Assembly (NCBI GenBank): GCA_964187785.1
Contig: OZ076409.1
Location: forward strand, 25,298,001-25,362,000
Length of the DNA: 64,000 nt
DNA from: Amphiscolops sp. MND2022
Taxonomy: Eukaryota
Reading direction: 5' to 3'
In this document: positions 4,257-23,033 of the stretch, piece by piece
Layout of the letters: every line of letters starts with the position of its first letter
Numbering within the stretch: position 1 is the stretch's first letter
Translations under genes and position numbers: made by a program
Notes under the pieces: generated by a model
Seen by the model: only the letters and a program-made list of their open reading frames with translations
Told to the model about the DNA's origin: nothing
Databases searched by the model: none

Positions 4257-4358
4257 TAGTAGTAGTAGTAGTAGTAGTAGTAGTAGTAGTAGTAGTAGTA
4301 GTAGTAGTAGTAGTAGTAGTAGTAGTAGTAGTATTAGTAGTAGTAGTAGTAGTAGTAG
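4257..4358 (+). repeat. (TAG)n microsatellite, 34 units (one TAT variant)
   Basis: Read directly. Confidence 0.97.
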
Positions 4359-5770
4359 CTGTAGTCTCGGTCCGAAAAAGGCGGAGTGACTACCCTTTTT
4401 CAGACCATGGCCAACAAACGCTTAGGACCTAGATCAGATTACCGTTTTCAGACCAGCTCTGTAAAAACCCTTTTTCAGACTTCTGCAATTTCTGAAAAAG
4501 GAGTCACTAGGAGTTTGAAAAAGGTGATTTAACCCTTTTCAGACTAACTAGGCCAAATATTGGAGACGGAATCTTACACCAATTCGCATCATCTTTATTT
4601 TCATCAGTATAGCTTTCATGTTTTGCAACGATAAGGGTTCGAATACTTGGTACAGTTTTATTGAATAGACGTACACTTGAATAACATTAAATGTTTGTTT
4701 TAGGCACTTTTGAGGAGGTGGAAAATTCAAGAATGCAGAATTCAAGGATGCAGAATTGACACCAGAGACTTTATGAATTTTGTTCATGAATTTCACAGAA
4801 AGTTTTATTGATTACCAAGTTCTTGAACCTTCCTGGGAGCTAATGATTTCTTTCTATAGATTTCTTGCTACTCTACATTGATATCGCCACTGTGTCAAAA
4901 AGAAAAAAAACTCTCAAAAGATTTGATTCAATAACTATTCAAACAGTTTCGAGAACTCTCAAAACAGTTTCGATTCAGTAATTCGAAGATTGGAGGAAGA
5001 AATAAAAGTACACAACATTAAAAACAAGTCACTCATCTGCCAACGTGCACTGATCAAAACAATCGTCAAACAATGTTATCACCAAAACAAGTAAACTATA
5101 AACATGTAAAACTTGTGAACTAATTACGGATCAATGAGGCCAAATGAATACAAAAAACATCATCGTCATTCAATAAACAAAAAAGAGAAGCCAATGACAG
5201 GAAATTTAATTGAAGAAAATCATAAACATTCTTACCAAATCTAATAATTGTAGCCCGAAAAACATGTGCTCTGAAGCATGTACGAGATTGTTTTTCACGA
5301 AACGACATCACAGGATCCGTCAAAAGAAAAACTTGTAGAGGAATTTTAATAACTGTAAGGAAAACACAGAATCGTTCAATACCCCAAAACATGACTTCCA
5401 AAACATGTACAGGAAATCAAATGACTTAAAATTCAAAGCATCAACTCGATGAGCAAGCCAAACCCAACCCCCTAATTTTTGGTTCCAGCCATGTATGAGA
5501 TGAAGATTTTGATTGTCAGCGGAGTTAAAATTCCAAAACGTGAAATCAATGACCCAAAATCAAAACATATTCTTTTGTAAATCCACTTTGAACTCGAATA
5601 GAGGTTTGTCATTGTCAATTTAAAGGCGTTTCAGTCATGTTGAATAAACACTTAGAAGATGGTTAAGAACCACAAATTAGGTCATGAGGGGTATATTTAT
5701 CATCATCATCAAAATATCATTTGATGAGTTCCATTCATACAAAGGGTGGTAGCTCGAAACGTCAAAGTAA

Positions 5771-19904: not shown

Positions 19905-20585
19905 ACGAGTTGAAGGAGTAGTTGTTATAAACTTGTTATGAACTTTTCTTTTCCTTTCTTGGTGCTCTTAAAGAATTCATCCTTTTCCTCCGTTCTATTG
20001 CTTTCTTATAATAATTATTATATAATCTTATTATATTTTATATTATAATATTTTATTATTTTACATAATTATTATATTATATAATATTACTTTTATATTC
20101 ATTTCAATTTAAAAAAGTTTTAACTTCCTTATTTCTTCTTGAAATTTAAGGACGCGAGTTTTGGTCAAGGACCGTTAATTTGAAAGATGAATGGTAACAT
20201 TTTTGAAATGAGTTTTTCGAAATTCAATAAATAACGTTAAATAAATAGCTTTAAAAAACGTAAAATCTTCCGTCAAATTGAAAGTTAAATAACAAATTTG
20301 AACGACTAAAATTGAAATTCATTTTACTAAGGTCCAAAACAGCAGGAATTCGCGTGACTAACATCAAAAAAGGTAATTTCCTTAATGAATAACCCAAATT
20401 TTTTCTACTCTGCTGAAATTATTTCAAAATGGTTCTTCAAATAATGACGGTAGTAAGCTAACAGAGGACAATTTAAAATTAATACTCAGTATTAAGCCCT
20501 TTTAAATTGGCACTTCGAGCAATAGAGACTTATTAAATTGGTATCAGAATACTAAATGACTACTTAAAATGTCCTCCATATCATG

Positions 20586-23033
20586 TAGTAGTAGTAGTAG
20601 TAGTAGTAGTAGTAGTAGTAGTAGTAGTAGTAGTAGTAGTAGTAGTAGTAGTAGTAGTAGTAGTAGTAGTAGTAGTAGTAGTAGTAGTAGTAGTAGTAGT
20701 AGTAGTAGTAGTAGTAGTAGTAGTAGTAGTAGTAGTAGTAGTAGTAGTAGTAGTAGTAGTAGTAGTAGTAGTAGTAGTAGTAGTAGTAGTAGTAGTAGTA
20801 GTAGTAGTAGTAGTAGTAGTAGTAGTAGTAGTAGTAGTAGTAGTAGTAGTAGTAGTAGTAGTAGTAGTAGTAGTAGTAGTAGTAGTAGTAGTAGTAGTAG
20901 TAGTAGTAGTAGTAGTAGTAGTAGTAGTAGTAGTAGTAGTAGTAGTAGTAGTAGTAGTAGTAGTAGTAGTAGTAGTAGTAGTAGTAGTAGTAGTAGTAGT
21001 AGTAGTAGTAGTAGTAGTAGTAGTAGTAGTAGTAGTAGTAGTAGTAGTAGTAGTAGTAGTAGTAGTAGTAGTAGTAGTAGTAGTAGTAGTAGTAGTAGTA
21101 GTAGTAGTAGTAGTAGTAGTAGTAGTAGTAGTAGTAGTAGTAGTAGTAGTAGTAGTAGTAGTAGTAGTAGTAGTAGTAGTAGTAGTAGTAGTAGTAGTAG
21201 TAGTAGTAGTAGTAGTAGTAGTAGTAGTAGTAGTAGTAGTAGTAGTAGTAGTAGTAGTAGTAGTAGTAGTAGTAGTAGTAGTAGTAGTAGTAGTAGTAGT
21301 AGTAGTAGTAGTAGTAGTAGTAGTAGTAGTAGTAGTAGTAGTAGTAGTAGTAGTAGTAGTAGTAGTAGTAGTAGTAGTAGTAGTAGTAGTAGTAGTAGTA
21401 GTAGTAGTAGTAGTAGTAGTAGTAGTAGTAGTAGTAGTAGTAGTAGTAGTAGTAGTAGTAGTAGTAGTAGTAGTAGTAGTAGTAGTAGTAGTAGTAGTAG
21501 TAGTAGTAGTAGTAGTAGTAGTAGTAGTAGTAGTAGTAGTAGTAGTAGTAGTAGTAGTAGTAGTAGTAGTAGTAGTAGTAGTAGTAGTAGTAGTAGTAGT
21601 AGTAGTAGTAGTAGTAGTAGTAGTAGTAGTAGTAGTAGTAGTAGTAGTAGTAGTAGTAGTAGTAGTAGTAGTAGTAGTAGTAGTAGTAGTAGTAGTAGTA
21701 GTAGTAGTAGTAGTAGTAGTAGTAGTAGTAGTAGTAGTAGTAGTAGTAGTAGTAGTAGTAGTAGTAGTAGTAGTAGTAGTAGTAGTAGTAGTAGTAGTAG
21801 TAGTAGTAGTAGTAGTAGTAGTAGTAGTAGTAGTAGTAGTAGTAGTAGTAGTAGTAGTAGTAGTAGTAGTAGTAGTAGTAGTAGTAGTAGTAGTAGTAGT
21901 AGTAGTAGTAGTAGTAGTAGTAGTAGTAGTAGTAGTAGTAGTAGTAGTAGTAGTAGTAGTAGTAGTAGTAGTAGTAGTAGTAGTAGTAGTAGTAGTAGTA
22001 GTAGTAGTAGTAGTAGTAGTAGTAGTAGTAGTAGTAGTAGTAGTAGTAGTAGTAGTAGTAGTAGTAGTAGTAGTAGTAGTAGTAGTAGTAGTAGTAGTAG
22101 TAGTAGTAGTAGTAGTAGTAGTAGTAGTAGTAGTAGTAGTAGTAGTAGTAGTAGTAGTAGTAGTAGTAGTAGTAGTAGTAGTAGTAGTAGTAGTAGTAGT
22201 AGTAGTAGTAGTAGTAGTAGTAGTAGTAGTAGTAGTAGTAGTAGTAGTAGTAGTAGTAGTAGTAGTAGTAGTAGTAGTAGTAGTAGTAGTAGTAGTAGTA
22301 GTAGTAGTAGTAGTAGTAGTAGTAGTAGTAGTAGTAGTAGTAGTAGTAGTAGTAGTAGTAGTAGTAGTAGTAGTAGTAGTAGTAGTAGTAGTAGTAGTAG
22401 TAGTAGTAGTAGTAGTAGTAGTAGTAGTAGTAGTAGTAGTAGTAGTAGTAGTAGTAGTAGTAGTAGTAGTAGTAGTAGTAGTAGTAGTAGTAGTAGTAGT
22501 AGTAGTAGTAGTAGTAGTAGTAGTAGTAGTAGTAGTAGTAGTAGTAGTAGTAGTAGTAGTAGTAGTAGTAGTAGTAGTAGTAGTAGTAGTAGTAGTAGTA
22601 GTAGTAGTAGTAGTAGTAGTAGTAGTAGTAGTAGTAGTAGTAGTAGTAGTAGTAGTAGTAGTAGTAGTAGTAGTAGTAGTAGTAGTAGTAGTAGTAGTAG
22701 TAGTAGTAGTAGTAGTAGTAGTAGTAGTAGTAGTAGTAGTAGTAGTAGTAGTAGTAGTAGTAGTAGTAGTAGTAGTAGTAGTAGTAGTAGTAGTAGTAGT
22801 AGTAGTAGTAGTAGTAGTAGTAGTAGTAGTAGTAGTAGTAGTAGTAGTAGTAGTAGTAGTAGTAGTAGTAGTAGTAGTAGTAGTAGTAGTAGTAGTAGTA
22901 GTAGTAGTAGTAGTAGTAGTAGTAGTAGTAGTAGTAGTAGTAGTAGTAGTAGTAGTAGTAGTAGTAGTAGTAGTAGTAGTAGTAGTAGTAGTAGTAGTAG
23001 TAGTAGTAGTAGTAGTAGTAGTAGTAGTAGTAG
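20586..23033 (+). repeat. Uninterrupted (TAG)n array, ~816 units (2448 bp)
   Basis: Read directly; no variant unit seen. Confidence 0.95.

What the first reader, a model, noticed from the sequence alone, without database searches (positions are those of the whole stretch)
4257..23033. Both YR elements insert precisely at TAG^TAG in a microsatellite that is a LINE's 3' tail
Seen: junctions read (TAG)n|CTGTAG...CTACAG|(TAG)n and (TAG)n|TATAGAT...ATCATG|(TAG)n with repeat phase preserved. Removing both elements leaves one array between the LINE 3' UTR and its TSD (GTAATTGT at 488 and 23033). The genes point in opposite directions relative to the repeat strand. Inference: microsatellite-specific integration, with LINE retrotransposition supplying new landing pads, i.e. 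one mobile element exploiting another. I recall microsatellite-targeting Crypton groups being reported; this should be verified.
Basis: partly seen in the sequence, partly recalled or inferred. Interest (0 to 1): 0.78.

Follow-up and report, generated by a model that had tools for sequence, protein, structure and literature searches.

The report
Recombinase transposons in LINE's TAG tail
Two distantly related jumping genes, each predicted to encode a DNA cut-and-rejoin enzyme, sit in step inside one long TAG repeat at the tail end of a retrotransposon, so they likely home to such repeats and here used one that the retrotransposon likely brought; repeat-homing by this kind of element is already reported.

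Summary
The anatomy is real. A CR1/L2-type LINE (496-4256) is followed by (TAG)34, element E1 (7,741 bp), (TAG)35, element E2 (8,381 bp) and (TAG)816. Removing both elements leaves one in-phase 885-unit array ending at the LINE's target-site duplication. Two empty copies of the interrupted host repeat in the window confirm that duplication (7-8 bp) and carry no array. E1 and E2 have short terminal inverted repeats and open SET/zinc-finger/tyrosine-recombinase genes about 17% alike. 'Precisely at TAG^TAG' cannot be read: all three registers fit, and a duplicated core of whole repeat units would be invisible. Most likely these are Crypton-type elements that recombine through a short repeat core; a 6-bp core alone puts 98% of the window's sites in this array. 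Flanks of other copies could not be fetched, so targeting rests on two insertions, and dependence on LINE tails on one locus. Microsatellite targeting is reported for CryptonV and nimaviral recombinases; LINE-born microsatellites are well known. This scan noted before, on other DNA of this genome, a 7.7-kb SET-recombinase element in (CTA)n (unchecked).

The parts
86..495 (+). left half of an interspersed host repeat interrupted by the LINE
   Evidence: 85-86% identical to 59188-59515 and 26077-26405; last 40 bp match 59617-59656
488..495 (+). left target-site duplication (G)TAATTGT, 7 or 8 bp
   Evidence: single copy of TAATTGT in empty paralogs
496..4256 (+). CR1/L2-type LINE: ORF1 529-1305 (PHD), ORF2 1312-4178 (AP endonuclease, RT; frameshift near 3549), 3' UTR 4179-4256
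   Evidence: Pfam PHD, Exo_endo_phos, RVT_1; frames; protein cluster of 181 members with 955-aa full ORF2s
4257..4358 (+). (TAG)34, LINE-proximal part of the tail
4359..12099 (-). E1, 7,741-bp SET/zinc-finger/tyrosine-recombinase DNA element
   Evidence: bounded by arrays and inverted repeats; recombinase exon in a 14-member cluster
4359..4381 (+). E1 terminal inverted repeat (17 of 23 identical to the other end; outer 6 bp perfect), followed by subterminal copies of the motif TCYGAAAAAGG at 4394-4543
   Evidence: 1 of 20,000 random pairs match as well
5771..10031 (-). E1 gene, three predicted exons (10031 to about 9560, 9307-8743, 8036-5771), about 1,100 aa
   Evidence: 6 candidate splicings, all open; colinear with P0002; Pfam SET; catalytic R, K, R, H, Y motifs conserved
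12077..12099 (-). E1 second terminal inverted repeat
12100..12204 (+). (TAG)35 between the two elements
12205..20585 (+). E2, 8,381-bp SET/zinc-finger/tyrosine-recombinase DNA element (minimal extent 12207-20584)
12209..12227 (+). E2 left terminal inverted repeat (18 of 19 identical to 20564-20582; 13 bp perfect)
   Evidence: 0 of 20,000 random pairs match as well
14275..19904 (+). E2 gene, predicted exons 14275-15809, 16254-17576, 18866-19904; 1,298 aa without internal stop
   Evidence: 96 relatives; fold of relative P0062 matches Cre/Xer
15898..15943 (+). internal copy of E2's left end inside intron 1, with no TAG array beside it (unexplained)
   Evidence: 44 of 46 identical to 12200-12245
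20564..20582 (-). E2 right terminal inverted repeat
20586..23033 (+). (TAG)816, pure, distal part of the tail
23033..23040 (+). right target-site duplication; its first 2-3 bases are in phase with the repeat
23034..23172 (+). right half of the interrupted host repeat
   Evidence: matches 59650-59768 and 26561-26604
59188..59768 (+). empty paralog of the LINE's insertion site (control)
26077..26604 (+). second empty paralog of the LINE's insertion site (control)

Best explanation
Two distantly related DNA elements with terminal inverted repeats and tyrosine-recombinase genes sit in phase in a (TAG)n array at the 3' end of a LINE, and they likely got there by Crypton-type site-specific recombination, in which an excised circle would carry one or two repeat units between its joined ends and would swap strands with an identical stretch of the array that the LINE likely deposited as its tail. 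Shown: the order of parts, the phase, the inverted ends, the open genes, the LINE's duplication and the absence of an array at empty sites. Inferred: (1) the LINE inserted first and brought a TAG tail, which later lengthened by slippage; (2) each recombinase binds its own terminal and subterminal motifs, excises a circle and integrates through a short core (most simply the 6 bp TAGTAG), so no duplication or footprint is visible; (3) specificity needs little more than that core plus partial arm contacts, because an array offers hundreds of in-phase cores; (4) LINE tails are used because they are (TAG)n, not because they belong to a LINE.
For: Phase kept at both insertions; one 885-unit array after removal. 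Independent elements: no blastn or tblastx match between them, yet homologous over zinc finger, binding and catalytic domains (hhalign 97.3%, E 2e-11, 17% identity). Recombinase fold: model of E2's relative P0062 (pLDDT 74) gives XerA, Cre, XerH and lambda Int as top matches, probability 0.99-1.0 though E only 1e-3 to 5e-2; Pfam Phage_integrase in 2 of 28 family members. With two units between E1's joined ends, or one between E2's, the spacer between perfect arms is 6 or 7 bp, the geometry given for these enzymes (6-8 bp; PMC3212892 passage). A 6-bp core has 880 sites in the array and 15 outside. E2's introns are in the LINE's sense and unspliced, so it did not travel with the LINE RNA. E1 is young and multi-copy: 13 of 14 cluster members 97.6-99.9% identical, one being this copy. 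Precedent: Crypton donor-target recombination and clean excision seen in Chlamydomonas (PMC9977147 passage); L2 LINEs end in short tandem repeats (PMC2653535 passages).
Against: Only two insertions at one locus; no other flank was seen. E2's copy number is unknown (0 of 5 guessed ORFs in the collection; no longer relatives). An internal copy of E2's left end at 15898-15943 has no array beside it. With one unit, E2's 7-bp spacer matches the target at only 3 central positions, so the core length is not fixed by the data. Described Cryptons lack terminal inverted repeats (PMC3212892). The window's own recombinases gave no Pfam integrase hit, and the unaligned fold of E1's domain failed. The 98% figure uses today's array, which may have grown after insertion.
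Confidence: 0.68

Rival explanations
1. Real dependence: tails of this young LINE family are the main source of (TAG)n in the genome, so the recombinase elements spread on sites that the LINE makes. Same chemistry as the best explanation, stronger ecological claim.
For: The only microsatellite in 64 kb is this LINE's tail; the LINE family is young and abundant (181-member protein cluster; 3 of 15 listed members are full 955-aa ORF2s); both elements used it.
Against: One locus. No tail of a second LINE copy was seen (none of the stored proteins reads into a tail). The genome-wide share of (TAG)n owed to LINE tails is unknown.
Confidence: 0.2
2. The recombinase only excises; circles carry longer TAG filler and enter arrays by host homologous recombination, or a short seed was hit and the arrays grew on both sides afterwards, as proposed for plant SaTar/TAFTA elements.
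For: PMC5907723 section 'SaTar targeting' proposes filler circles plus homologous recombination and cites 6-8-bp targets expanding to 50 units a side; the two inner arrays here are of similar length (34, 35 units); phase would be kept too.
Against: Those are MULEs without a site-specific recombinase; here catalytic motifs are intact and the arms-plus-spacer geometry fits direct integration. Growth of the array after insertion is compatible with the best explanation.
Confidence: 0.12
3. No targeting: the elements insert broadly and survive in a harmless repeat, or landed there by chance.
For: The array is large (5.5% of the element-free window) and the window was picked for this feature; E2's internal end copy lies outside any array.
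Against: Both in the array and both in phase: about 0.3% x 1/9; the element ends themselves resemble the repeat (CTG TAG, CAG TAG).
Confidence: 0.05
4. Assembly artefact: reads from different loci were joined through TAG arrays, and the 816 pure units are a consensus effect.
For: A 2.4-kb perfectly pure array and a frameshift in an otherwise young LINE are typical of long-read consensus error; no reads could be laid.
Against: The outer flanks are the two halves of one interrupted repeat with a matching duplication; the inner arrays are only about 100 bp and easy to span.
Confidence: 0.05

Closest known systems
CryptonV (Kapitonov and Jurka 2012, Repbase Reports; seen only as a title and one sentence in PMC8869645, and as a table entry in PMC5753468 and PMC4455052)
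   Same: Animal DNA transposon encoding a tyrosine recombinase, inserted in microsatellites.
   Different: Whether CryptonV has SET domains or inverted ends was not seen in any paper read.
Crypton A/F/I/S (PMC3212892, abstract and passages; CryptonF-1_cRei in PMC9977147, passages)
   Same: Recombinase-only coding, introns, proposed circle, integration through a short shared donor-target motif, clean excision.
   Different: Described as lacking terminal inverted repeats; E1 and E2 have them. No DUF3504 or GCR1_C hit here; N-terminal SET and zinc fingers instead; target is a tandem repeat.
Telomere-repeat-targeting tyrosine recombinases of endogenous nimaviruses (PMC10871703, passages)
   Same: C2H2 finger plus SAM-like plus recombinase layout; insertion into a tandem repeat.
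   Different: Carried by large viral genomes, target (TAACC)n; sequence kinship not tested; no nimaviral name among the 50 viral fold matches listed (best: nudivirus VLF-1).
SaTar microsatellite-targeted MULE arrays of guayule and rice (PMC5907723, abstract and one section)
   Same: Unrelated elements stacked, un-nested, in one microsatellite.
   Different: Non-autonomous DDE-type elements in plants; no recombinase; arrays not LINE tails as far as read.
L2/CR1-group LINEs with tandem-repeat tails (PMC2653535 passages) and LINE-born microsatellites (PMC3812793 passages)
   Same: AP endonuclease-RT LINE ending in a short tandem repeat with a 3' stem-loop candidate; retrotransposition creates microsatellites.
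   Different: Unit is TAG and the array is 885 units; secondary use by recombinase transposons was not found in the searches run.

Membership tests
CryptonV | DNA element encoding a tyrosine recombinase and no reverse transcriptase | tested here: met
   Catalytic motifs, fold of relative P0062, no RT in E1/E2 ORFs
CryptonV | specific insertion in microsatellites | tested here: inconclusive
   2 of 2 elements here are in phase in (TAG)n; no other copies' flanks obtained
CryptonV | recombinase groups with Repbase CryptonV sequences; domain layout and termini as in the 2012 report | not testable with these tools
   No Repbase sequences; report not held; 3 papers name CryptonV; a review sought by DOI is not held
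Crypton (A/F/I/S) | no terminal inverted repeats | tested here: not met
   17/23 and 18/19 inverted ends, 1 and 0 of 20,000 random pairs as good
Crypton (A/F/I/S) | 4-6-bp terminal direct repeat shared with the target | tested here: inconclusive
   2-bp and 3-bp overlaps visible; whole repeat units would be hidden in the array
Crypton (A/F/I/S) | DUF3504-type recombinase (A) or GCR1_C domain (F) | tested here: not met
   no such Pfam hit in the window's ORFs or in 28 of 28 members of alignment A2
DIRS/Ngaro recombinase retrotransposons | reverse transcriptase and RNase H inside the element | tested here: not met
   none among the six long E1/E2 ORFs scanned; both genes keep introns
Endogenous nimaviruses | large viral genome around the recombinase | tested here: not met
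   elements are 7.7 and 8.4 kb with one gene each
Endogenous nimaviruses | recombinase of the telomere-associated family | not tested
   no such sequence was fetched; layout similar by text only
CR1-group LINE (CR1/L2 and kin) | PHD-type ORF1, AP endonuclease plus RT ORF2, no RNase H | tested here: met
CR1-group LINE (CR1/L2 and kin) | 3' tail of short tandem repeats across copies | tested here: inconclusive
   met in this copy; other tails not seen; 3' stem-loop z only -1.6
CR1-group LINE (CR1/L2 and kin) | RT phylogeny placing it in a named clade | not tested
   no reference RT set was fetched

The most novel reading that the evidence does not exclude
An obligate two-tier system: a young LINE family seeds (TAG)n tails, and at least two ancient lineages of SET-carrying recombinase transposons depend on those tails as scarless, re-usable docking sites, integrating through a core of whole repeat units in a fixed orientation. 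The enzymes would be natural microsatellite integrases of animals that could be retargeted to repeat tracts.
Probability: 0.2. Interest if true: 0.68.

Novelty: new member of a known kind. Interest (0 to 1): 0.4.

Why it matters
It gives two apparently intact animal recombinase elements with readable ends and a defined target, so the long-assumed but little-tested Crypton mechanism (circle, short core, scarless excision) and the basis of microsatellite targeting can be assayed directly. The count suggests that targeting may need only a short core match. If LINE tails prove to be the main targets, one element's reverse-transcription tail would set the spread of another, a link not found in the searches run. 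As it stands each half is known and the link is one case.

Tried and rejected
No whole genome is held. Sequencing runs: none was listed for 3000-12100, so no reads were laid. Loci of relatives: none confirmed in viral contigs (junction pattern 0 matches), metagenome contigs or prokaryote genomes; alignment A2 was too diverse to scan with. Word-indexed protein search failed for E2 and for A2 (only itself). Single-sequence fold of E1's recombinase region was unusable (pLDDT 35). Sequence search of solved structures found only the SET domain or nothing; NCBIfam gave nothing useful. Looked for stored proteins that read into a TAG tail: none among those fetched. The second LINE in the window (about 39200-42850) is a different, decayed family with no TAG tail and says nothing about this family. 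Rejected: a readable TAG^TAG cut site; DIRS/Ngaro; co-retrotransposition of E2 with the LINE; LINE insertion into a pre-existing array (empty sites lack one). Paper searches for Crypton + VLF-1 (0 papers), recombinase + SET + transposon and Crypton + SET domain listed nothing on these elements; listings only were seen. Supplements were not read; additional file 1 of PMC3212892 lists Crypton termini and may bear on the terminal-repeat comparison.
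Full report
Observation. The window holds three TAG arrays and no other microsatellite of 18 bp or more: 4257-4358 (34 units, one TAT variant), 12100-12204 (35) and 20586-23033 (816, pure). Taking both out leaves one in-phase array of 885 units. The array is 2,655 of 47,878 element-free bases (5.5%), so two random insertions would both fall in it 0.3% of the time, and keep phase 1 time in 9. That is a post hoc figure for one selected window.

The LINE and its duplication. 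496-4256 is a LINE with a PHD ORF1 and an AP-endonuclease/RT ORF2, frameshifted near 3549 in this copy. Its proteins fall in a 90% cluster of 181 members (ORF1, ORF2 and pieces, so not a copy number); 40 were read and 15 listed, of which 3 are full 955-aa ORF2s. The DNA left of 495 and right of 23033 are two halves of one interspersed repeat that occurs uninterrupted at 59188-59768 and 26077-26604, each with a single TAATTGT and no array. So the duplication is real (7 bp certain, 8 possible), the LINE did not land in an old array, and the array runs from 78 bp behind the ORF2 stop to the duplication. The duplication starts with 2-3 bases in phase with the repeat, as expected if the tail paired with the nicked target (inference). 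L2-type LINEs end in short tandem repeats (PMC2653535, passages). A second tail of this family was not seen, and the 3' UTR fold is only weakly better than shuffles (z -1.6).

The two elements. E1 has 23-bp inverted ends (17 identical, outer 6 perfect) and E2 19-bp ends (18 identical); 1 and 0 of 20,000 random pairs matched as well. Each has further copies of its end motif near the termini. E1's gene (minus strand, three predicted exons, about 1,100 aa; 6 candidate splicings, all open) is colinear with P0002. E2's (plus strand, three exons) reads 1,298 aa without a stop. Both run SET, zinc fingers, helical domain, recombinase. They share no DNA similarity, but their families align over 405 columns (97.3%, E 2e-11, 17% identity), with the catalytic motifs in register apart from the lysine region. 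A model of E2's relative P0062 built on 28 sequences (pLDDT 74) matched XerA, Cre, XerH and lambda integrase (probability 0.99-1.0, best E 1.4e-3) and, among viral models, nudivirus VLF-1 and phage integrases. The window's own proteins were not folded successfully and have no Pfam integrase hit; 2 of 28 family members do. E1's recombinase exon has 14 cluster members, 13 of them 97.6-99.9% identical, one being this copy; 9 of 14 carry all five motif strings tested. E2 has 96 relatives at E up to 0.001, but its own copy number is unknown. Look-alike clusters in the Atlas are animal, many with SET (leads only).

What the junctions can and cannot say. Hence T^AG, TA^G and TAG^ all fit both elements, and a duplicated core of one or more whole units cannot be seen. 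'Precisely at TAG^TAG' is a drawing convention. With two units between E1's joined ends the spacer between perfect arms is 6 bp; with one unit between E2's it is 7 bp; recombinase sites are described as inverted repeats around 6-8 bp (PMC3212892, passage). For E2 that 7-bp spacer matches the target at only its 3 central bases, so the core length stays open.

Mechanism. Most likely order: the LINE inserted with a TAG tail; the tail lengthened; E1 and E2 entered separately. E2 lies in the LINE's sense with introns intact, so it did not ride the LINE RNA. By analogy with CryptonF-1_cRei, which ends in a short motif, targets the near-identical motif and excises cleanly (PMC9977147, passages), each element would excise as a circle holding one or two repeat units and recombine with the same units in an array. 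Counting sites shows how little specificity is needed: a 3-bp core has 47% of its window sites in the array, a 5-bp core 93%, a 6-bp core 98% (880 against 15). These are upper bounds if the array grew later. The model predicts a fixed orientation to the repeat strand for each family; a 0-2-bp core would let E1, whose outer 6 bp are symmetric, enter both ways. All steps after the anatomy are inferred.

Against and unexplained. No other flank could be read: no genome, no run listed, no related locus in three collections. A 46-bp copy of E2's left end (44 identical) lies in its first intron with no array beside it; it may be an operator or decoy site, a captured junction or an off-target relic. 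The pure 816-unit array and the LINE frameshift could be consensus errors. Plant SaTar elements give a rival route, filler circles plus homologous recombination or growth of a short seed (PMC5907723, abstract and one section).

Comparison. Some CryptonV families insert specifically in microsatellites (PMC8869645, one sentence and the cited title). Nimaviral recombinases with a C2H2 and SAM-like layout target telomeric repeats (PMC10871703, passages). Non-LTR elements are a major source of microsatellites, and several transposons target them (PMC3812793, passages). E1 and E2 work like CryptonV; membership could not be tested because its description and sequences are not held. They fail the 'no inverted repeats' feature of the Cryptons described in PMC3212892. 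Use of LINE tails by recombinase elements, and SET-recombinase fusions, were not found in the listings of searches; this is a limited library, and Repbase is outside it. The label 'CR1 group' rests on domain layout and recalled classification, not on a tree.

Earlier notes. One unchecked note reports, on another piece of this genome, a 7.7-kb SET-recombinase element almost always inside (CTA)n. Length and, if meant in gene orientation, strand agree with E1, but I could not check its survey and do not count it as support. Other notes call the host an acoel worm; not tested.

Verdict. A real, clean case of two old recombinase lineages in one LINE-born microsatellite. Targeting is likely and of a known kind; the exact cut site is unreadable; dependence on LINE tails is shown at one locus only. 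Interest 0.4.

Noticed in passing
window 15898-15943: Copy of E2's left terminus inside the intron that splits its SET domain; the 6 bases before it equal the last bases of the right end, so it resembles a short-spaced joined end. No array beside it.
   Followed up: partly
window 10067-10077: Perfect copy of E1's end motif 36 bp upstream of its start codon; possible autoregulatory site.
   Followed up: no
window 8240-8401 and 52671-52852: Small element with 31-bp inverted ends in E1's second intron, with a 95-98% identical inverted copy elsewhere in the window.
   Followed up: no
window 26933-37061: BEL/Pao-type LTR retrotransposon whose gag/protease region is repeated in tandem about four times at a spacing near 1.68 kb, 97-99% identical.
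   Followed up: no
window 39200-42850: Decayed LINE of another family, without a TAG tail.
   Followed up: partly
window 86-495, 23034-23172, 26077-26604, 59188-59768, 39023-39105: Interspersed repeat family with a palindrome near one end and a GC hairpin near the other; interrupted by other insertions in more than one copy.
   Followed up: partly
window 9504-10031 (-), 15600-16400 (+): The two SET domains differ: E1's family matches KMT2/KMT5A by profile; E2's has NHCC, YYGSDYF and CLCPEC motifs recalled as SUV4-20-like.
   Followed up: no
P0002, P0055, P0133: Relatives lie on contigs of 8,031, 6,332 and 6,524 bp, about one element long, as expected if assemblies break at flanking repeats; DNA could not be fetched.
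   Followed up: partly
window 14457-15143, 16435-16600, 18146-18357: In-frame tandem repeats (195, 111, 69 bp) in E2's coding linkers and 56-bp repeats in its second intron.
   Followed up: no
window 20586-23033: 816 TAG units without a single variant, against 34 and 35 units for the inner arrays; recent expansion or consensus effect.
   Followed up: no
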